DNA of 64,000 nt from a phage, in sequence record PZ452610.1; one strand, written 5' to 3'. Position 1 is the first letter of the stretch; the number at the start of each line of letters is the position of its first letter. The translations under genes and the position numbers were made by a program. Shown here one piece after another: positions 20,250-26,799 of this stretch. Under the pieces are notes generated by a model. The model had not been told where the DNA came from and did not search any database. It saw only the letters and a list, made by a program, of their open reading frames with translations.

Positions 20250-20798
20250 TTAACGAGCCCATTTGATGATTTCTGTAATCAAATCATTACGTTCGCTTGC
20301 ATTAAATCCTATAACTTTGTTAGCACCATCATGATTAAGTAATTGATACGTTTGGATTTTGTTATGAATTGCAAACTCTTCAAAATGTGAAATGACTGTA
20401 TTAAAACCGAATGAAGACAAAGTGATAAGGTCGTCTTCAAAACTTTCAGTCATTTCGTTACGTGTTAAAATAATTGTGAACACATCATGGTTTTGGCAAA
20501 GACGAACATAATCCTGTTCATAAACGTCAAGAACCGAGTCCGCATCTTGTCGAATACGTCCATAAACCCAGTTACTAATATATCCACGGTCTAACAGATA
20601 AATCTTAGTAGGGTCTAAATAATTCAACATCGTTTCGAAACAGCCAACTTCATTTCGAGACTTAACATCGAAACGTCCATCAACTGTTCGTTTAGGGAAA
20701 TCAATCTTTACATATCTTTCACTAATTTCCATTATGTCATTAATGAAAGTTGTTTTACCAGCATTATCCGGGCCATCTACTAAAATAATTTTAGCCAT
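20250..20798 (-). CDS. P-loop nucleotide kinase, thymidylate-kinase-like
   Basis: 182 aa; Walker A GPDNAGKTT and downstream LDRGYISNWVYG resembling the TMK DRY...S motif. Confidence 0.55.
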   Translation of the reverse strand: MAKIILVDGPDNAGKTTFINDIMEISERYVKIDFPKRTVDGRFDVKSRNEVGCFETMLNYLDPTKIYLLDRGYISNWVYGRIRQDADSVLDVYEQDYVRLCQNHDVFTIILTRNEMTESFEDDLITLSSFGFNTVISHFEEFAIHNKIQTYQLLNHDGANKVIGFNASERNDLITEIIKWAR

Positions 20799-20799
20799 T

Positions 20800-21699
20800 T
20801 TATTCCTCGATTACGACATCTTCATATTTAGGTATATTATACGGTGAAGAAATTAAAGCATTAAAGTAGATGAACTCACCAAGACCTGGATGAAATACTT
20901 CTTCAGGATTTTCGAAATATTGAATCTTCGGACGTCCTTTAAGAATTTGATAGTACTCAGTTTTAGTTGGTTTAAAAATTCGAATCAACGCTTCTTCAGG
21001 ATACTTATTTCTGTCGAAGCTATTATTTGGATCGGTTATATAAAGCGGTTGACCTAATTGAATTGCGCATTCAACAACTTGTTCAAAACGATAGCATGGG
21101 TCACTAATTCGAAATGGATGAAAAATACCATCTAGATGAATAGGAGCCAAATCACCTACAAGACGCTGCATGATGGAAGGACGTATAACTTTCTGCGTTA
21201 CGATAATCTTATTACCATCTGCACCTGCGTTAACCAGCACTTCTTTTTGACGTTCATTCAACACAGTAGTTTGAAGTGAACGATTAACCGACAACATATC
21301 AGTTTTTAAGAATTCGTCAATATAAAAACGTGGTTTATTAGGGTCTGCAGTGATATTGAAATTGAATTCCACATCAAAAGCGCCGTCATATCCAGTGATA
21401 TCTGTGATTAAAAAATCACAATCATAATAAGCAATTAATGAATCAACAACAAATTCATTTTCAGACCAGAAATATTTACGAGTGTTATACGCGTTATCTT
21501 TATACCATAATGGAACAAACTTAAATTCTGGAAAAAGACGTTCGCATTCTTTAATATCAGATGCATTACGTGGATATGTAATCACATCACCCGGATTAGC
21601 ACGGTGCAAATGAAGTTGGAAGTTGCCATCCTTAAGGATAGCATACTGTCCAGTTTCATAAGACCGCATACTCAAGATTGGTACGCGGAAAATAGCCAT
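20800..21699 (-). CDS. Hypothetical protein, 299 aa, at the T4 beta-gt position
   Basis: ORF between uvsX and 42 where T4 encodes beta-glucosyltransferase; no similarity to beta-gt recognised. Confidence 0.55.
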   Translation of the reverse strand: MAIFRVPILSMRSYETGQYAILKDGNFQLHLHRANPGDVITYPRNASDIKECERLFPEFKFVPLWYKDNAYNTRKYFWSENEFVVDSLIAYYDCDFLITDITGYDGAFDVEFNFNITADPNKPRFYIDEFLKTDMLSVNRSLQTTVLNERQKEVLVNAGADGNKIIVTQKVIRPSIMQRLVGDLAPIHLDGIFHPFRISDPCYRFEQVVECAIQLGQPLYITDPNNSFDRNKYPEEALIRIFKPTKTEYYQILKGRPKIQYFENPEEVFHPGLGEFIYFNALISSPYNIPKYEDVVIEE

Positions 21700-22415
21700 T
21701 AGTCAAGGAATCCTTTAACATAATCAAAATCACGTTCAAACACATGGGCACTTACCATGGTATGAGTATAATCACCAACTTCTACCCCACATTCGTTAGC
21801 GATATAATGAAGTAATTTTCCTTGGAGATAAAAATCCAACTGCATAACAACAGCACAGTTCTGAGAACGCATATGACAGTGGGTATAAAGCTTACCATCA
21901 CGAATATAATAAGTCACTGAGTCAGTACATGGATATTCAAGCGTTTCGTCCGAATCAAGCAAAGCCTGATCAGAACTTTCTAGAATTTGGAACACAACTC
22001 TTCGAGAGTTAGGCTTCTCTTTAAGTTCTTTTAGAAGAGCTGGTAATTGGGCCGCAATGCGAGGACCATAGAAAGTGTTGAAGTTCGCCGGCAAAACATC
22101 TGATTTTGGTTTAGAAATAAATTTAGCGACATTAGGATATGCCTTAAACGCTTCTTCTGCGTTGGTACCACCAGAAATCATAAACTTCCAGAAGTCTTCG
22201 GCATATTCATAAGAGATGCGGTTAATACGTGGGTCGGTCATTTTGAATGATGATGGAGTGTCAACAACTACTGTCATAGACCCAATTTCATTACAACGTC
22301 CAATACGAGAATCAGTTACGAATTCCGGGTTTTCTAAAATTTCACGATTGACTGCTTTAAATGCGGTTTGAAAATCTGCGGCTTTGATATATTTCATTGT
22401 GTTATGTTTTCCCAT
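21699..22415 (-). CDS. 42: dCMP hydroxymethylase gp42 (thymidylate synthase family)
   Basis: 238 aa; TS-family motifs SRRVVF, active-site PC (EYPCTDS), MRSQN; T4 position. Confidence 0.8.
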   Translation of the reverse strand: MGKHNTMKYIKAADFQTAFKAVNREILENPEFVTDSRIGRCNEIGSMTVVVDTPSSFKMTDPRINRISYEYAEDFWKFMISGGTNAEEAFKAYPNVAKFISKPKSDVLPANFNTFYGPRIAAQLPALLKELKEKPNSRRVVFQILESSDQALLDSDETLEYPCTDSVTYYIRDGKLYTHCHMRSQNCAVVMQLDFYLQGKLLHYIANECGVEVGDYTHTMVSAHVFERDFDYVKGFLD

Positions 22416-22457: not shown

Positions 22458-22697
22458 TTATTTGAATTTCTTGACAATGTTGATATAACGTAAAGCTTCA
22501 GCATCGATACTTCCAAGAACACTATGAAGAAATGCATCAGCGTAGTATTCCAATTGAACAGGTTCTTTAATCACTTTAGCCGCTTTAGTTTCAAACAGGC
22601 CCATCAGGGCCTTTTTAAGAATTTGTTCGTTGCTGTTAATTTTCATAGTCAAAATCTCTTCATTAAGTTGGTGGTTAAAAGTTTTTCTAGAAATCAT
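22458..22697 (-). CDS. Hypothetical protein, 79 aa
   Basis: ORF in operon context. Confidence 0.45.
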   Translation of the reverse strand: MISRKTFNHQLNEEILTMKINSNEQILKKALMGLFETKAAKVIKEPVQLEYYADAFLHSVLGSIDAEALRYINIVKKFK

Positions 22698-23869
22698 TCC
22701 GGGTACCTCAAAGCGTCATCAGAGTTAGTTATATCAATAATAGATATAGAGTTTTCTGCTAACCCGTTTTTAGATAATTGACGTTTATAATATCTTTCAC
22801 AATATGTACACGTCGTCCCGCAGATTTCATTAGCACAATCGAAATCTGGATGTCTGAACCACCTTTTTTCTAAAAAGCCATCTAACAAAGAGGTTTCAAT
22901 ATTTACTGTATGTGAAAACTCAGTTTCGTTTTCAAGAGTGAAAATAGTCTCTAAAGGCTTCCACAGTTCTAACAAATTACCTTCAAACTTTTCAGAAGCG
23001 TATGCTTCAAGAACTTTCAAAATGTAGTCTGTGCTACCTGTACGTCCTGAAACTTTGAATTGAGTGATACCAATATCATTATAAAGTTTCAAATCTTGAG
23101 GACGAACAAAACGAGTTCTCAACCAGTTAAATGGGTCTGTATCACGAGCTTTAATACAGTGCTGCATAGGATATCCGTTTAAGGATTTAGCATCATCAGC
23201 TGTAACATCAGTACTATGGAAAATATAGCAAGAGTCACGATAGCTACAATGTGTTGTATACCCTTTACCAGCATTAGAACAGAACTCATTTACAAGAACT
23301 TCAAATATTATATTGTTCTTATTGCAAAACTCTGCTGCACGCTTCAGGAAAGAAACTGAACGGTTCTTATGAATTCCACAGCAGACCTTTTTGATATTAT
23401 ACTGGTCATGCAAGTATTTGATTTGAGTTACAGCATCGACATGTAGAATTGTTGAAACTTCAATCTCAATGTCTTTATTGACTTCACGAACAATTTCCAT
23501 AACAACAGGGTTAGCGATAGTAATACGCCATACGCCTATTGACCAAAGATACTGAACATAATCCTGAATAGCTTTCTTCTTCCACCCAACTAGTTCTCTT
23601 TTTGAACCAGGATTTATCGTGTTGAGTGTATAGTTAAAGCAAATACCTAATTCGTTACAACGTTTAACGTAATCTTCTAACATCTTTTTGTCAACGTCAG
23701 GAAGCCTAAAATCAGGTCTGGCTGCTACAAAAGCCATTTCTCTTGTAGAGCCGTATACTTCGTTTATCAAGCTATTAGGATAAGTTTTATTGAGCTCTAC
23801 GATTTTATCAAGAAGAGCTAAATCAAAATTCGTTCCAATTTTAAAAGTATTCATTTTTTTGCATCTCAC
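22694..23869 (-). CDS. Hypothetical protein, 391 aa, with C-terminal Cys cluster
   Basis: C-terminal CANEICGTTCTYC (C-x4-C-x3-C-x2-C); family not recognised; sits inside the sugar-nucleotide cassette. Confidence 0.6.
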   Translation of the reverse strand: MRCKKMNTFKIGTNFDLALLDKIVELNKTYPNSLINEVYGSTREMAFVAARPDFRLPDVDKKMLEDYVKRCNELGICFNYTLNTINPGSKRELVGWKKKAIQDYVQYLWSIGVWRITIANPVVMEIVREVNKDIEIEVSTILHVDAVTQIKYLHDQYNIKKVCCGIHKNRSVSFLKRAAEFCNKNNIIFEVLVNEFCSNAGKGYTTHCSYRDSCYIFHSTDVTADDAKSLNGYPMQHCIKARDTDPFNWLRTRFVRPQDLKLYNDIGITQFKVSGRTGSTDYILKVLEAYASEKFEGNLLELWKPLETIFTLENETEFSHTVNIETSLLDGFLEKRWFRHPDFDCANEICGTTCTYCERYYKRQLSKNGLAENSISIIDITNSDDALRYPE

Positions 23870-23910: not shown

Positions 23911-24312
23911 TTATAGATTCGGTTTATATGATTTAAATGTTTCGAATTCGCCTTTATTCATAAGAGCTTTGAATTCGTCAGGACGCATAGCTTTGTCGTC
24001 GATAATCCAATCATATACTGGTTTATGTGTTAGCAAATTATGGTACTTCAAACCAATGTTTTCCAAGTTCTGAATCAGACTTGGGAGAATGTCAATTGCT
24101 ATACGACCAGGACCTACTGACTTCATACCGCGAGCAGTGTAAAGCGTTATGGTATGCCCTGCATCATACAGGGCATTAATAGCAGTCACCATTTCGACGT
24201 CTGGTTTGAAGTTCACGTAATCACGATTGTTATTCCACTCTGTTATACAATCATCGACATCAAAACAAAGATTAAGCATGTTTTCTACACGGTGCATTAG
24301 ATTCGTTCCCAT
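23911..24312 (-). CDS. HAD-superfamily phosphatase-like protein, 133 aa
   Basis: N-terminal FDVDDCIT (HAD motif I-like), TLYTARG (motif II), KPVYDWIIDD (motifs III/IV). Confidence 0.6.
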   Translation of the reverse strand: MGTNLMHRVENMLNLCFDVDDCITEWNNNRDYVNFKPDVEMVTAINALYDAGHTITLYTARGMKSVGPGRIAIDILPSLIQNLENIGLKYHNLLTHKPVYDWIIDDKAMRPDEFKALMNKGEFETFKSYKPNL

Positions 24313-25982
24313 TGATGAGTGATATCGCCACCGATTGGACGATAAGAAACACCAGTTTCTTTATCAGTTAGTACCCATTTACCAGGATTTTTTGTAATCA
24401 GAGTAGCCGTTACAGGTTCTGCTACGTCATAACTAATAGAGCCGTCCTGAAGTACACGGCCCATGTTACGTAATTGCTTAGTCAGAAGTTCCATACCTTT
24501 ATAATATGCGGCTACCGCTTTAAGTGGATTATTCTTGAAATAACCACCTAATGCAATCCAGATAATTGCTACAGCCAAATGATGATACTCGTTAAACGAA
24601 CTCATCTTTCCATATTTGTAAACTAATGGATTGATGTTAATAGTCACATTACAAGTTGTTTCGTCAATAGTAAACTGTCCCCAGGTCGGATTAGCGTTGA
24701 ATTCATCATAACCTGAAACAGCATAAAGCACTTTAGCTTCATCATACAATTTTGGCCCGTAAATCTTGGTTTCGCCAAAATATCCACGAGGGTCGATAAA
24801 CTTGACTTCGCCGTTATCAGTAATCATAGTATTACTGAAGTTCGGGTCACCGTGAATAACAGAGTACTGTCCCTGAGAACGGGTATGATAACGAATAAGA
24901 TGTTCTAAAGCTTGCTTCAGCATTGGCTTCAGACGTCCAATCTTAGTGTAGTTCACGTGTGTGATTTTACCAAATGAATCAATCAATGGCTGAATGCTTT
25001 CACAACGATCAATAACTTTCGTATAGAACTCTTTAGTGAAATCACGGCGAACAGTTTCAGGACTTACAAAATAAGTGTCTGTGCTGAATTTCAGTGCATC
25101 TAAAATTGCATCAACAATTTGTGGACGAGCAAGACTTGATTTGGATTTAATATATTCAAATGCTGGCTTACCTTTAATACGTTCCATTTCAAAATTATTT
25201 TCATTTACCGAAACTAACTGAGGAACTGAATCTGATTTCACTTTCAAATACCATGAAATCTCATCTTTTTGAAGAGCTCGACCTTGTTCGGTTAACGCGA
25301 ATTTAGTTACAGTTTCTTCGCCAATTTCAACTGCATTAAAACTACGATTAAGTTCACGAACTTCATGAGCTTTTTCAAGTTTAGGCATATCACCTAAATC
25401 AATTAGATTCATAAGCTCTGATTTATTGAATGCACTGCCGTAAAGGAATTCTACGAAATCACGTCCTTTGCAGTATTCATGAATTTCCTCATCAGTAGAA
25501 CCCATGTAGAATTCCCAGTCTTTGAACTGATAAATTCCTACAACATTACCGCCTGTTGAACCTACGTTAGTGATATTTTCACCATCGAAATTATATCGAC
25601 ATTCATCACCCTTAACATAGATTGCGTTAACATTCCAAGACCATGAACCAAAATCAGGAATAATATCACACCAGTTAACAATTACGTTATGGCCATCTAA
25701 ATCTTTGTATAATTTAGCAAGAGCATAAGCAGAACCATACGCTTCATCAACTGTACGAATAGTCACATTGAACCCTTCTTGCTCGCAATAAGCTCGAACA
25801 GTTTCAGCAAATTTTGAATGAACTACTACAATAATTTCATCTGCGCCAAGGTCAGAATAAATTGTATACAAATTGCTCAGAATAGTGTCTTGTTTATAGT
25901 TAACAAGAACTTTTGGAATATGATGCGTTATTGGATACAAACGAGTTGCCAGTCCAGCACCAAGAATAACAGCTTTTTTCAT
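24297..25982 (-). CDS. Bifunctional sugar-1-phosphate nucleotidyltransferase / APH-type sugar kinase
   Basis: 561 aa; N-terminus KAVILGAGLATRLYPITHHIPKVLV (NTP-transferase G-x-G-x-R-L); C-terminus HGDPNFSNTMITDNGEVKFIDPRGYFG (APH/ChoK catalytic loop). Confidence 0.75.
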   Translation of the reverse strand: MKKAVILGAGLATRLYPITHHIPKVLVNYKQDTILSNLYTIYSDLGADEIIVVVHSKFAETVRAYCEQEGFNVTIRTVDEAYGSAYALAKLYKDLDGHNVIVNWCDIIPDFGSWSWNVNAIYVKGDECRYNFDGENITNVGSTGGNVVGIYQFKDWEFYMGSTDEEIHEYCKGRDFVEFLYGSAFNKSELMNLIDLGDMPKLEKAHEVRELNRSFNAVEIGEETVTKFALTEQGRALQKDEISWYLKVKSDSVPQLVSVNENNFEMERIKGKPAFEYIKSKSSLARPQIVDAILDALKFSTDTYFVSPETVRRDFTKEFYTKVIDRCESIQPLIDSFGKITHVNYTKIGRLKPMLKQALEHLIRYHTRSQGQYSVIHGDPNFSNTMITDNGEVKFIDPRGYFGETKIYGPKLYDEAKVLYAVSGYDEFNANPTWGQFTIDETTCNVTININPLVYKYGKMSSFNEYHHLAVAIIWIALGGYFKNNPLKAVAAYYKGMELLTKQLRNMGRVLQDGSISYDVAEPVTATLITKNPGKWVLTDKETGVSYRPIGGDITHQWERI

Positions 25983-26023
25983 GTTGTGGTCCTCATTGGT
26001 AAGTAGGTGTATTGTACACTATT

Positions 26024-26167
26024 CTAGTTAAAGCATTCATACTTTGCTTGTAGTCCAATCATAATCCATCCAATTACAAGTGTTGGAATCATTACTGGAG
26101 CCGTTAAGCTCCAGTAGATAGTCATGACAAGCATCAATAGTAAAAGTCCTATTGTTATTGCTTTCAT
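26024..26167 (-). CDS. Possible small membrane peptide, 47 aa (not in ORF track)
   Basis: ATG overlaps the TGA of the SIS gene (ATGA coupling); MKAITIGLLLLMLVMTIYW... hydrophobic. Confidence 0.3.
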   Translation of the reverse strand: MKAITIGLLLLMLVMTIYWSLTAPVMIPTLVIGWIMIGLQAKYECFN

Positions 26168-26799
26168 TGTTCGCCTCGTAACATGGCACCTAGTGCACCG
26201 CCTGGATGGAACTTAAGAAAGTCATTAGAGGTAAATCCACGTTCAGACGAAAGGTTGATAGCAAACGTATCGATAAGCGCTAACAACAATGTAGTGGACA
26301 TAGTCGGAGCCAGAGAATTCTCATCAACCTCTACCGCGATGCCTGTACAGAAAGAGTAATCAAAAAGGGCTTCATTTTCTTGCGGAATGTCTGGGTTACA
26401 ATGCAACAGAATCTGTTTGACATTTGGACGAATCATTTTAAGATGCTTAGCCACGCCTATCATTTCTTCAGTCTTACCAGAACGACTAATATGAATCAAC
26501 ACATCATTAGGCGCAATGAATCCTGCATCACCGTGAGAATAATGCCCAGTGTTCAAGTACATACTCGGGATACCGAGTGAAGCAAATGTCTCAGAAGCTT
26601 TAGTTGCAATATTAGCATTCTTACCAACACCTGTAATAATTACTCGGCTTTCATAATTACTAAGTCCAGGGCGTCGAAGAGTTTCTAGAATAGCATTATA
26701 ACGAGCAGGGTTTTGACTAATTACTTTGGCCATAGCGGCCAAAGAAGAAGCTTGTTTTATGATTGCGTCAATAGCGATAGTAATAGGAGTAGTTTTCAT
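26164..26799 (-). CDS. Arabinose-5-phosphate isomerase-like SIS-domain protein (KdsD/GutQ type, no CBS domains)
   Basis: 211 aa; VIITGVGKNANIATKASETFASLGIPS...HGD...HISRSGKT and C-terminal HPGGALG parallel the E. coli KdsD SIS domain. Confidence 0.8.
   Translation of the reverse strand: MKTTPITIAIDAIIKQASSLAAMAKVISQNPARYNAILETLRRPGLSNYESRVIITGVGKNANIATKASETFASLGIPSMYLNTGHYSHGDAGFIAPNDVLIHISRSGKTEEMIGVAKHLKMIRPNVKQILLHCNPDIPQENEALFDYSFCTGIAVEVDENSLAPTMSTTLLLALIDTFAINLSSERGFTSNDFLKFHPGGALGAMLRGEQ

What the first reader, a model, noticed from the sequence alone, without database searches (positions are those of the whole stretch)
24297..25982. Single-polypeptide nucleotidyltransferase-kinase fusion (anomeric sugar kinase plus NDP-sugar pyrophosphorylase)
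The N-terminal about 230 aa carry the sugar-1-P nucleotidyltransferase signature (AVILGAGLATRLYPIT...PKVLV); the C-terminal about 230 aa carry the APH/choline-kinase catalytic loop (HGDPNFSNTMI ... IDPRG). This architecture resembles salvage enzymes that phosphorylate a free sugar at C1 and then activate it (AmgK/MurU-like logic, protozoan arabino/fucokinase-pyrophosphorylases). The adjacent HAD gene overlaps its 5' end, suggesting coupled expression.
Basis: partly seen in the sequence, partly recalled or inferred. Interest (0 to 1): 0.75.

Follow-up and report, generated by a model that had tools for sequence, protein, structure and literature searches.

The report
Known phage UDP-arabinose kinase-pyrophosphorylase fusion
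This gene is the RB69-type phage enzyme that fuses a sugar-phosphate kinase to a nucleotidyltransferase to make activated arabinose for decorating phage DNA; the fusion is real, but it is already described in the literature.

Summary
Window 24297-25982 (minus strand) is one 561-aa ORF. It has an N-terminal sugar-1-phosphate nucleotidyltransferase domain, a C-terminal APH/choline-kinase-like domain and a 56-residue tail.

The window is a Mosigvirus, an RB69-like T-even phage. The gene is 100% identical to the 'glmU' gene of E. coli O157 typing phage 3. Its protein is about 99% identical to RB69 ORF53_52c and to its phage Bas47 (AlbertHofmann) homologue.

The fusion was described in 2018. A 2026 paper equates RB69 gp52:53 with AfhE of phage HY126, a bifunctional D-arabinose-5-phosphate 1-kinase and UDP-arabinofuranose pyrophosphorylase. 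The pathway feeds arabinosylation of 5-hydroxycytosine in phage DNA.

The reported substrate is arabinose 5-phosphate, not free arabinose. The neighbouring HAD phosphatase acts between the two activities. This is the logic of the ADP-heptose pathway (GmhA/HldE/GmhB) rather than AmgK/MurU. The HAD gene overlaps the 3' end of the fusion gene, not its 5' end.

Verdict: already known, low interest.

The more interesting lead is a neighbour, the U32-family gene at 22694-23869. It may be an oxygen-independent, prephenate-dependent route to 5-hydroxycytosine.

The parts
24297..25982 (-). 561-aa AfhE-type bifunctional gene (RB69 ORF53_52c orthologue): arabinose-5-P 1-kinase and UDP-arabinofuranose pyrophosphorylase
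   Evidence: ORF. 100% DNA identity to O157 typing phage 3/6/13 'glmU'. 555/561 aa identical to frame-corrected RB69 ORF53_52c and 556/561 to Bas47. Full-length match to phrog_4098. Literature assignment.
25353..25982 (-). N-terminal sugar-1-phosphate nucleotidyltransferase domain (residues 1-210)
24468..25352 (-). APH/choline-kinase-fold kinase domain (residues 211-505)
24297..24467 (-). C-terminal 56-residue tail (residues 506-561, mostly beta) plus stop codon; function unknown
   Evidence: Modelled at pLDDT 81-90. Present only in phage members. Most other family members end at query position about 500-505.
23911..24312 (-). HAD-family phosphatase (AfhF-type; RB69 gp51), start overlapping the fusion gene's stop
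   Evidence: TIGR01689 capsule-biosynthesis phosphatase, E 2e-13. 127 of 129 aligned residues identical to solved structure 9iqw, and E 1.9e-10 to 1xpj. Overlap read. RefSeq annotates the TAATG start at 24297. Reported role.
26164..26799 (-). SIS-domain arabinose-5-phosphate isomerase (KpsF/GutQ type; RB69 gp55)
   Evidence: Pfam SIS E 1e-10. TIGR00393 kpsF E 2e-32 and KdsD E 7e-31. phrog_5670.
26024..26167 (-). 47-aa hydrophobic small ORF between the isomerase and the fusion gene (ATGA overlap with the SIS stop)
   Evidence: Sequence. Full-length phrog_3610 match, E 6.8e-27. Annotated in Bas47 and O157 typing phage 3.
26011..26035 (-). T4 middle-promoter-like site (MotA box TGCTTTA, 12 nt, TACAAT), 29 nt upstream of the fusion gene's ATG
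   Evidence: The pattern TGCTTYA-N11-13-TANNNT occurs 14 times in the window against 1.84 expected; 0 of 100 shuffles reach 14. Function is inferred, not shown.
22694..23869 (-). Peptidase_U32-family protein (RB69 gp50), role unassigned; candidate O2-independent pyrimidine C5 hydroxylase
   Evidence: Pfam U32 E 7.5e-11. E190, C197 and C214 align with the essential E/C/C of TrhP and RlhA. At least 80% identical in all 222 phage records that hold it.
22458..22697 (-). 79-aa ORF (RB69 ORF049c homologue), unknown function; occupies the slot next to U32 where other phages also carry a chorismate mutase
21699..22415 (-). Thymidylate-synthase homologue, the 5-hydroxy-dCMP synthase (RB69 gp48)
   Evidence: Pfam Thymidylat_synt E 2.3e-15. 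233/238 identical to solved structures 9iqc/9ir2. Function shown for RB69 gp48 in PMC13326640.
20800..21699 (-). Putative DNA arabinosyltransferase 1 (RB69 gp46:47)
   Evidence: phrog_3891, full length. Assignment from PMC13326640 Table 1.
20250..20798 (-). Thymidylate-kinase-like nucleotide kinase (RB69 gp45)
   Evidence: phrog_761 E 1.6e-45. Table 1 of PMC13326640.

Best explanation
The gene encodes the Mosigvirus orthologue of RB69 gp52:53, the AfhE-type enzyme. It is one polypeptide with two active sites and belongs to a phage-encoded four-step pathway.

1. The SIS isomerase (26164-26799) converts host ribulose 5-phosphate to D-arabinose 5-phosphate.
2. The C-terminal APH-fold kinase domain of this protein phosphorylates the anomeric C1 to give arabinofuranose 1,5-bisphosphate.
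3. The HAD phosphatase, encoded by the overlapping downstream gene (23911-24312), removes the 5-phosphate.
4. The N-terminal nucleotidyltransferase domain condenses arabinofuranose 1-phosphate with UTP to give UDP-arabinofuranose.

Phage glycosyltransferases then transfer arabinose to 5-hydroxycytosine in phage DNA, which protects it from host nucleases.

Shown here: the two folds, intact catalytic residues, orthology to RB69 and Bas47, the conserved gene context, and fusions that tie the four activities together. Taken from the literature on close homologues: the sugar, the nucleotide and the order of steps. Inferred: middle-promoter expression and translational coupling to the HAD gene.
For: - Identity: 100% DNA identity to O157 typing phage 3. 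About 99% protein identity to corrected RB69 ORF53_52c and to Bas47.
- Catalytic residues are invariant over 52 sequences.
- Context: SIS, fusion, HAD, ThyA-like, GT and TMK-like genes lie together in the window. The same set occurs in Acinetobacter phage AM101, Erwinia phage Virsaitis27, and large uncultured phages at about 35% identity.
- Rosetta-stone fusions in the same family: SIS-NT-kinase, HAD-NT-kinase and HAD-SIS-NT-kinase. Their SIS domains are of the KpsF/GutQ (arabinose-5-P isomerase) type.
- Literature: the single 561-aa ORF and its link to UDP-arabinose (PMC6024577). [quoted passage not shown]
- Solved structures 98% identical to the window's HAD and ThyA-like proteins exist. This is consistent with the characterised phage being a very close relative.
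- The Thanatos homologue TH1_060 is needed for normal phage propagation.
Against: - I could not read the primary biochemical papers: He et al. 2026 and Mahler et al. 2025 are not held. The step order rests on a secondary description.
- Table 1 of the same NAR paper still lists the alternative order, with HAD making free arabinose and the kinase acting on arabinose.
- The kinase domain does not reach any Pfam threshold on its own, and alone it finds nothing in PDB by sequence.
- Purified Thanatos TH1_060 showed no pyrophosphorylase activity with xylose-1-P and any NTP. That is the wrong sugar, so it is weak evidence.
- Nucleotide specificity (UTP) cannot be read from the sequence.
Confidence: 0.85

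Rival explanations
1. Free-sugar salvage order. The HAD phosphatase first makes free D-arabinose from Ara5P. The kinase domain phosphorylates free arabinose at C1, and the nucleotidyltransferase domain activates it directly. This is an AmgK/MurU-like two-step on one polypeptide.
For: - Table 1 of PMC13326640 lists gp51 as 'dephosphorylates Araf5p to Ara' and the C-terminal domain as 'phosphorylates Ara to Araf1p'.
- The net stoichiometry and gene set are the same as in the best explanation.
Against: - The text of the same paper, citing the HY126 biochemistry, states that the kinase acts on Araf5P and the phosphatase on Araf-1,5-P2.
- The paper reports that the HAD homologue DLP3 gp81 resembles GmhB, a bisphosphate phosphatase.
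- By inference, a free neutral pentose would leak or be metabolised.
- The isomerase / bifunctional enzyme / HAD set mirrors the ADP-heptose pathway, which runs through a bisphosphate (established knowledge).
Confidence: 0.1
2. Same architecture but a different product: another pentose or heptose, or another nucleotide such as GDP, CDP or dTDP, rather than UDP-D-arabinofuranose.
For: - The best profile hit for the N-terminal domain in PDB is the GDP-heptose enzyme HddC.
- Nucleotide specificity was not testable here.
- The Thanatos paper proposed a deoxypentose.
Against: - Arabinose was identified chemically in RB69, and mono- and di-arabinosylated cytidines were found in the Mosigvirus NP.
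- The partner isomerase is of the KpsF/KdsD (Ara5P) type, not GmhA.
- The literature reports UDP.
Confidence: 0.03
3. The public annotations are right. It is a GlmU-like bifunctional enzyme, or a LicC/LicA-type phosphocholine cytidylyltransferase plus choline kinase, or a DNA glycosyltransferase.
For: - GenBank and RefSeq name it 'bifunctional protein GlmU'.
- LicC and choline kinases are the top structural neighbours.
- CDD once suggested glycosyltransferase family A.
Against: - GlmU equivalog TIGR01173 scores 21.6 bits against a cutoff of 366.85. The match covers only the N-terminal 100 residues, and the C-terminal half is a kinase, not an acetyltransferase.
- No choline-related context. The fusions are with SIS and HAD sugar-phosphate enzymes.
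- It scored poorly against phage glucosyltransferase models.
- Thanatos TH1_060 showed no transfer to DNA.
Confidence: 0.02

Closest known systems
AfhE of Escherichia phage HY126 / RB69 gp52:53 (ORF53_52c) / DLP3 gp82
   Same: Same 561-aa two-domain architecture and the same gene neighbourhood. About 99% identical to RB69 and Bas47 proteins. PMC13326640 equates RB69 gp52:53 with AfhE.
   Different: Nothing material. The window copy differs from RB69 by a few residues. In GenBank, RB69 is split into two ORFs by a one-base sequencing error.
ADP-heptose pathway: GmhA (SIS isomerase), HldE (bifunctional kinase/adenylyltransferase), GmhB (HAD phosphatase)
   Same: Identical pathway logic. A ketose phosphate is isomerised by a SIS enzyme. 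A bifunctional protein phosphorylates C1. A HAD phosphatase removes the distal phosphate. The second domain of the same bifunctional protein then makes the NDP-sugar (established knowledge; compare).
   Different: Analogy, not homology (from established knowledge, not tested here). HldE uses a ribokinase-like kinase domain and a cytidylyltransferase-like domain in the opposite order. Here the enzyme is an RmlA/MurU-like nucleotidyltransferase followed by an APH-fold kinase. The sugar is a pentose.
AmgK / MurU (MurNAc anomeric kinase plus MurNAc-1-P uridylyltransferase)
   Different: Separate polypeptides. The substrate is a free sugar and there is no phosphatase step. MurU equivalog NF045761 scores 25.1 bits against a cutoff of 250.
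LicA / LicC (choline kinase, CTP:phosphocholine cytidylyltransferase)
   Different: The substrate is an amino alcohol, not a sugar phosphate. Sequence identity is 10-20%. The genomic context is unrelated.
L-fucokinase/GDP-fucose pyrophosphorylase (FKP) and Leishmania arabino/fucokinase-pyrophosphorylase (AFKP80)
   Same: A single polypeptide with pyrophosphorylase and anomeric kinase activities.
   Different: Their kinase domain is of the GHMP family (own knowledge). They use free sugars and GTP. Here the kinase is APH-fold, and the reported substrate is a sugar 5-phosphate.
GlmU (the public annotation of this gene)
   Same: Only the first 100 or so residues of the nucleotidyltransferase fold.
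   Different: There is no left-handed beta-helix acetyltransferase domain. The score is far below the curated cutoff.

Membership tests
AfhE-type / RB69 gp52:53 bifunctional Ara5P kinase and UDP-Araf pyrophosphorylase | Full-length orthology to the described phage proteins | tested here: met
   555/561 identical to frame-corrected RB69 ORF53_52c and 556/561 to Bas47. Full-length phrog_4098 match, E 1.7e-294.
AfhE-type / RB69 gp52:53 bifunctional Ara5P kinase and UDP-Araf pyrophosphorylase | Nucleotidyltransferase domain followed by an APH-fold kinase domain in one chain | tested here: met
AfhE-type / RB69 gp52:53 bifunctional Ara5P kinase and UDP-Araf pyrophosphorylase | Clustered with an Ara5P isomerase, a HAD phosphatase, a ThyA-like 5hodCMP synthase and a glycosyltransferase | tested here: met
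   The same cluster occurs in AM101 and Virsaitis27.
AfhE-type / RB69 gp52:53 bifunctional Ara5P kinase and UDP-Araf pyrophosphorylase | Direct sequence identity to the biochemically characterised HY126 AfhE | not tested
   Neither the HY126 sequence nor the primary paper was available. Indirect support: PDB entries 9iqw and 9iqc are 98% identical to the window's HAD and ThyA-like proteins.
AfhE-type / RB69 gp52:53 bifunctional Ara5P kinase and UDP-Araf pyrophosphorylase | Ara5P 1-kinase and UDP-Araf pyrophosphorylase activities | not testable with these tools
   Needs enzyme assays. Reported for HY126 AfhE according to PMC13326640.
Sugar-1-phosphate nucleotidyltransferase (Pfam PF00483) | Score above the curated threshold | tested here: met
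   38.4 bits against 21.2.
Sugar-1-phosphate nucleotidyltransferase (Pfam PF00483) | GxGxRL...PK signature and the fold | tested here: met
Sugar-1-phosphate nucleotidyltransferase (Pfam PF00483) | Metal-binding aspartates | tested here: inconclusive
   D106, D195 and D198 are invariant. Their equivalence to the RmlA Mg ligands is inferred, not superposed.
APH / choline-kinase-like phosphotransferases (Pfam PF01636) | Score above the curated threshold | tested here: not met
   No PF01636 hit. Fructosamin_kin scores 16.7 bits against 22.4. Distant family members do pass, e.g. P0144 at 47.9 bits against 23.2.
APH / choline-kinase-like phosphotransferases (Pfam PF01636) | Bilobal kinase fold with Lys-Glu pair, HxDxxxxN catalytic loop and downstream Mg-binding Asp | tested here: met
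GlmU | Curated equivalog score and a C-terminal acetyltransferase domain | tested here: not met
   TIGR01173 scores 21.6 bits against 366.85, covering residues 3-104 only. The C-terminal half is a kinase.
MurU | Curated equivalog score | tested here: not met
HldE (ADP-heptose bifunctional enzyme) | Ribokinase-like kinase domain plus cytidylyltransferase-like domain | tested here: not met
   No HldE or PfkB family appears among the Pfam or NCBIfam hits. The folds found are RmlA-like and APH-like. It works like HldE but is not a member.
FKP / AFKP80 (fucokinase-pyrophosphorylase) | GHMP-family kinase domain | tested here: not met
   No GHMP hit in Pfam. The kinase neighbours are APH and choline-kinase folds.

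The most novel reading that the evidence does not exclude
This reading concerns the gene module, not the fusion gene itself. The U32-family protein two genes downstream (window 22694-23869) may be an oxygen-independent, prephenate-dependent hydroxylase. It would make 5-hydroxycytosine, at nucleotide or DNA level, when the O2/flavin-dependent ThyA-like 5hodCMP synthase cannot work, that is, in anoxic hosts such as gut Enterobacterales. The UDP-arabinose made by the fusion enzyme would then have an acceptor under both oxic and anoxic conditions. This would mirror the TrhO/TrhP dual pathway for ho5U in tRNA.

Support:
- Every characterised member of the U32 family that I know of takes part in an O2-independent hydroxylation. 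This includes C5 of cytidine (RlhA) and of uridine (TrhP), both prephenate-dependent.
- The three residues essential in TrhP and RlhA are conserved in the phage protein.
- In 54 phage records a CM_2 chorismate mutase, which makes prephenate, is present; in every record whose annotation I saw it lies beside the U32 and/or ThyA-like gene.
- U32 is absent from the otherwise collinear cluster of the Acinetobacter phage examined (AM101), whose host is a strict aerobe, and no Acinetobacter appears among the named U32-holding genera.
- It is the most conserved protein of the module, at least 80% identical across genera.
- Homologues at about 50-55% identity sit next to deoxynucleotide-metabolism genes in two large metagenomic contigs, one of them a megaphage-like 466-kb contig.

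I found no paper in the searchable library making this link. The two key subscription papers could not be read.
Probability: 0.4. Interest if true: 0.7.

Novelty: already known. Interest (0 to 1): 0.15.

Why it matters
The enzyme supplies the activated sugar for arabinosyl-5-hydroxycytosine, a DNA hypermodification. This modification lets RB69-like phages, including therapy candidates and the BASEL phages Bas46 and Bas47, resist restriction enzymes and CRISPR nucleases.

For this window the practical value is corrective. The public names of three genes in the module are wrong: 'GlmU' for the fusion, 'phosphoheptose isomerase' for the HAD phosphatase, and 'thymidylate synthase' for the hydroxylase. 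They should be read in the light of the 2018-2026 literature.

Nothing about the fusion itself is new. The open questions lie beside it. One is the role of the U32 gene. The other is the giant-virus proteins that fuse all four pathway activities into one chain.

Tried and rejected
- He et al. 2026 (Nat Chem Biol) and Mahler et al. 2025 (Cell Host Microbe) are not held. No preprint turned up.
- I tried to obtain the HY126 sequence. Only a taxonomy entry was found. The NAR paper has no supplements held. Text searches for HY126 and for PDB codes 9iqw and 9iqc gave nothing useful.
- The kinase domain alone against PDB by sequence gave no hit. The whole-family profile found only a weak RIO2 match in the kinase half. 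The kinase assignment therefore rests on the structure model.
- A single-sequence AlphaFold model of the HAD protein was poor (pLDDT 38). Its Foldseek search was meaningless, so I could not read the titles of the near-identical PDB entries.
- The sigma-70 promoter and terminator scan was not enriched over shuffles: 33 against 36.5, and 4 against 5.9. It was discarded in favour of the T4 middle-promoter pattern.
- The 79-aa ORF next to U32 was tested as a divergent chorismate mutase and rejected. It has no Pfam hit and BLAST E 0.16 against a real phage CM. Yersinia and Serratia phages carry both genes side by side.
- A strict 'U32 only in phages of facultative anaerobes' rule was considered and softened. 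The Dhakavirus examined (phage JS10, host E. coli) has the fusion gene but no U32 gene in the surrounding cluster, and all U32 matches in the phage collection are at least 80% identical.
Full report
WHAT IS THERE

The ORF finder returns one ORF at exactly 24297..25982 on the minus strand: 561 aa with an ATG start. A GAGGA ribosome-binding site lies 8 nt upstream.

The surrounding genes identify the window as a T4-like phage. They include gp41 helicase, UvsX, a 903-aa gp43 polymerase, RegA, the clamp loader and the clamp. Megablast gives 100% identity over all 1686 bases to E. coli O157 typing phages 3, 6 and 13, and 98% to RB69. There are 175 matching phage records.

After removing the one-base GenBank error that splits the RB69 gene into ORF052c and ORF053c, the protein is 555/561 identical to RB69. 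It is 556/561 identical to the BASEL phage Bas47.

THE TWO DOMAINS

Pfam finds NTP_transferase at residues 3-99 above its curated cutoff (38.4 bits against 21.2). In the C-terminal half it finds only sub-threshold kinase hints (Fructosamin_kin, 16.7 against 22.4). By sequence, the C-terminal half alone finds nothing in the PDB.

I built a 52-sequence alignment spanning 29-75% identity and predicted the structure from it. The model has pLDDT 94.2 and pTM 0.91, with no low-confidence linker. The two domains are therefore predicted to pack in a fixed orientation.

- C-terminal half: choline kinase (15.5), fructosamine-3-kinase (14.7), aminoglycoside phosphotransferases (14.6), glucosamine kinase (14.5), maltokinase (14.4), LicA (14.1), methylthioribose kinase (13.5).

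Several of these APH-fold enzymes phosphorylate an anomeric hydroxyl.

The columns that never vary in the alignment are the expected catalytic ones:
- Nucleotidyltransferase signature: G10, R14, K24.
- Acidic residues: D106, D195, D198.
- Kinase: K227 and E241, D379 and N384 of the HxDxxxxN loop (H377 is nearly invariant), and D397 of IDPRG.

Both active sites therefore look intact. The domain sizes are about 210 and about 295 residues. A 56-residue tail follows and is found only in phage members.

CONTEXT

All genes between gp43 and UvsX are on the minus strand and tightly packed. In order:
- a KpsF/KdsD-type SIS isomerase (kpsF E 2e-32)
- a 47-aa hydrophobic ORF
- the fusion gene
- a small HAD phosphatase (TIGR01689, E 2e-13)
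- a U32-family protein
- a 79-aa ORF
- a thymidylate-synthase homologue
- a glycosyltransferase-sized protein
- a thymidylate-kinase-like protein

The HAD start overlaps the fusion gene's stop, by 16 nt from the ATG at 24312 or as TAATG from the ATG at 24297.

The stop/start overlap between fusion and HAD recurs widely:
- Acinetobacter phage AM101
- Erwinia phage Virsaitis27
- Dhakavirus JS10
- two large uncultured phages at about 35% identity, where the HAD is of a different subtype

A T4 middle-promoter-like site (TGCTTTA, 12 nt, TACAAT) ends 29 nt upstream of the start codon. That pattern occurs 14 times in the window against 1.84 expected. This is a consensus match only.

INDEPENDENT SUPPORT FOR A FOUR-ENZYME PATHWAY

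An exhaustive search finds 1408 cluster representatives at E<=1e-3 and 136 at E<=1e-30. Nearly all of those listed keep both domains.

Some relatives carry extra domains in the same chain: SIS-NT-kinase, HAD-NT-kinase and HAD-SIS-NT-kinase. Their SIS domains are of the arabinose-5-phosphate isomerase type. One four-domain protein lies between a MutS-HNH gene and an RNA polymerase Rpb2 gene, which is a giant-virus context. These fusions tie isomerase, phosphatase, kinase and nucleotidyltransferase to one pathway without reference to the literature.

WHAT THE LITERATURE ALREADY SAYS

Thomas et al. 2018 (PMC6024577):
- found arabinose in RB69 DNA;
- re-sequenced this region and showed a single 561-residue ORF53_52c;
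- listed O157 typing phage 3 among phages with at least 97% identical homologues;
- noted SIS fusions in Butyrivibrio;
- proposed a role in UDP-arabinose synthesis.

Lee et al. 2026 (PMC13326640):
- show that the base is arabosylated 5-hydroxycytosine, made from 5-hydroxy-dCMP by the thymidylate-synthase homologue;
- model gp52:53 as a nucleotidyltransferase plus kinase;
- equate it with AfhE of phage HY126.

Citing He et al. [quoted passage not shown] AfhF (the HAD) is described as the Mg-dependent phosphatase that converts Araf-1,5-bisphosphate to Araf-1-P.

A Mosigvirus from the Durham collection carries mono- and di-arabinosyl-dC. The Shewanella phage Thanatos homologue is required for propagation.

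I could not read He et al. or Mahler et al.. The PDB does hold structures 98% identical to the window's HAD protein (9iqw) and thymidylate-synthase homologue (9iqc, 9ir2, 9iqu). This fits the characterised phage being a close Mosigvirus relative, but that link is my inference.

MECHANISM AND HOW SURE

Best explanation (0.85): ribulose-5-P is converted to arabinose-5-P by the SIS enzyme. The kinase domain makes the 1,5-bisphosphate. The HAD enzyme makes the 1-phosphate. The nucleotidyltransferase domain makes UDP-Araf. Transfer to 5-hydroxycytosine in DNA follows.
- Shown here: folds, catalytic residues, orthology, context and fusions.
- Taken second-hand from the literature: the sugar, the nucleotide and the order of steps.

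Table 1 of the NAR paper still shows that order.

The pathway logic matches the ADP-heptose route (GmhA, HldE, GmhB) step for step, although the folds differ. The gene is not GlmU, despite its GenBank name (21.6 bits against a cutoff of 366.85).

VERDICT ON THE FINDING

The feature is already described, so interest is low.

A LEAD NOTICED ON THE WAY

The U32-family gene at 22694-23869 has no assigned role. The NAR paper lists it only as a 'sugar or heterocycle reductase' and never mentions U32.

The characterised U32 proteins take part in oxygen-independent hydroxylations. RlhA is required for 5-hydroxycytidine in rRNA and TrhP for 5-hydroxyuridine in tRNA. Both depend on prephenate, and TrhP has an O2-dependent partner pathway, TrhO. 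UbiU and UbiV, the O2-independent ubiquinone hydroxylases, are from my own knowledge.

What I found:
- Aligned with E. coli UbiU, UbiV, RlhA and TrhP, the phage protein keeps the Glu and two Cys shown to be essential in TrhP and RlhA (E190, C197, C214). It also adds further conserved cysteines.
- It is at least 80% identical in all 222 phage records that hold it. The hosts are Enterobacterales and Shewanella.
- The fusion gene occurs in 369 records, including 57 Acinetobacter phages. No Acinetobacter appears among the named U32-holding genera, and the collinear cluster of Acinetobacter phage AM101 lacks U32.
- In 54 phage records a genuine CM_2 chorismate mutase, which makes prephenate, is present. 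In every record whose annotation I saw it lies beside the U32 and/or thymidylate-synthase-homologue gene.
- Homologues at about 50-55% identity sit next to dCMP deaminase in a 466-kb megaphage-like contig, and next to deoxynucleotide salvage genes in another contig.

The phage 5hodCMP synthase uses molecular oxygen. A prephenate-dependent U32 hydroxylase would therefore give these gut phages an anoxic route to the same base.

Points against, or unresolved:
- Dhakavirus JS10, which infects E. coli, has the fusion gene but no U32 gene in the surrounding cluster.
- The window phage itself has no chorismate mutase. Its 79-aa ORF is a different protein.
- No biochemistry exists for the phage U32 protein.
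- The unread papers may already address this.

Noticed in passing
window 22694-23869 (-), with 22458-22697 (-): The U32-family gene inside the arabinosyl-5-hydroxycytosine module keeps the Glu and two Cys that are essential in the prephenate-dependent pyrimidine C5 hydroxylation proteins TrhP and RlhA. It is at least 80% identical across 222 phage records. No Acinetobacter phage appears among the named holders, and the collinear cluster of Acinetobacter phage AM101 lacks it. In 54 phage records it is accompanied by a CM_2 chorismate mutase. It may be an O2-independent route to 5-hydroxycytosine.
   Followed up: partly
L002 6001-8781 (P0084); also P0088, P0091, P0093, P0144, P0157: Proteins of 890-1011 aa fuse HAD, KpsF-type SIS, nucleotidyltransferase and kinase in one chain, which is the whole ribulose-5-P to NDP-sugar pathway. 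P0084 lies between MutS-HNH and RNA polymerase Rpb2 genes, a giant-virus context. P0091 comes from a eukaryotic transcriptome set.
   Followed up: partly
window 21699-22415 (-) and 23911-24312 (-): The PDB holds solved structures 98% identical to these two neighbours: 9iqc, 9ir2 and 9iqu ('Thymidylate synthase') and 9iqw ('Capsule biosynthesis protein'). There is none for the 561-aa fusion protein. The 9iqw chain aligns from the MHRVENM start, which corresponds to the TAATG start codon at 24297.
   Followed up: partly
window 24297-25982, 23911-24312, 21699-22415: Public annotations are misleading. The fusion is named 'bifunctional protein GlmU', the HAD phosphatase 'phosphoheptose isomerase' (also the PHROG 1238 label), and the 5hodCMP synthase 'thymidylate synthase'.
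   Followed up: yes
window 21699-22415 (-): The thymidylate-synthase homologue reads ...HMRSQNCAVVMQLDF.... By my recollection of E. coli ThyA numbering, this puts Asn at position 169 and Asp at position 177. Asn at 169 is the D169N signature that PMC13326640 gives for 5-hydroxy-dCMP synthases.
   Followed up: partly
window 26024-26167 (-): A conserved 47-aa, strongly hydrophobic ORF (phrog_3610) sits between the isomerase and the fusion gene, overlapping the isomerase stop by ATGA. The middle-promoter-like site for the fusion gene lies inside its 3' end.
   Followed up: no
whole window, e.g. 26011-26035, 20836-20860, 24705-24730 (all -): T4 MotA-box middle-promoter-like sites (TGCTTYA-N11-13-TANNNT) are strongly enriched: 14 against 1.84 expected, 9 of them on the coding (minus) strand. 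One lies inside the fusion gene, about 400 nt upstream of the HAD gene.
   Followed up: no
L005 and L009 (uncultured 350-kb and 159-kb phage contigs): Distant relatives of the fusion gene (about 35% identity) sit in a conserved module with SIS, an overlapping HAD of another subtype, a ThyA homologue and a T4 endonuclease-IV-like gene. Flavodoxin_2, UDG-like and YAcAr genes are nearby, and L005 also has a dCMP deaminase. The same DNA-modification logic therefore extends well beyond T4-like phages.
   Followed up: no
window 24297-24467 (-), residues 506-561 of the fusion protein: The C-terminal 56-residue, mostly beta tail is confidently modelled. It is restricted to phage members of the family, and most other members stop at about residue 505. 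Its role is unknown.
   Followed up: no
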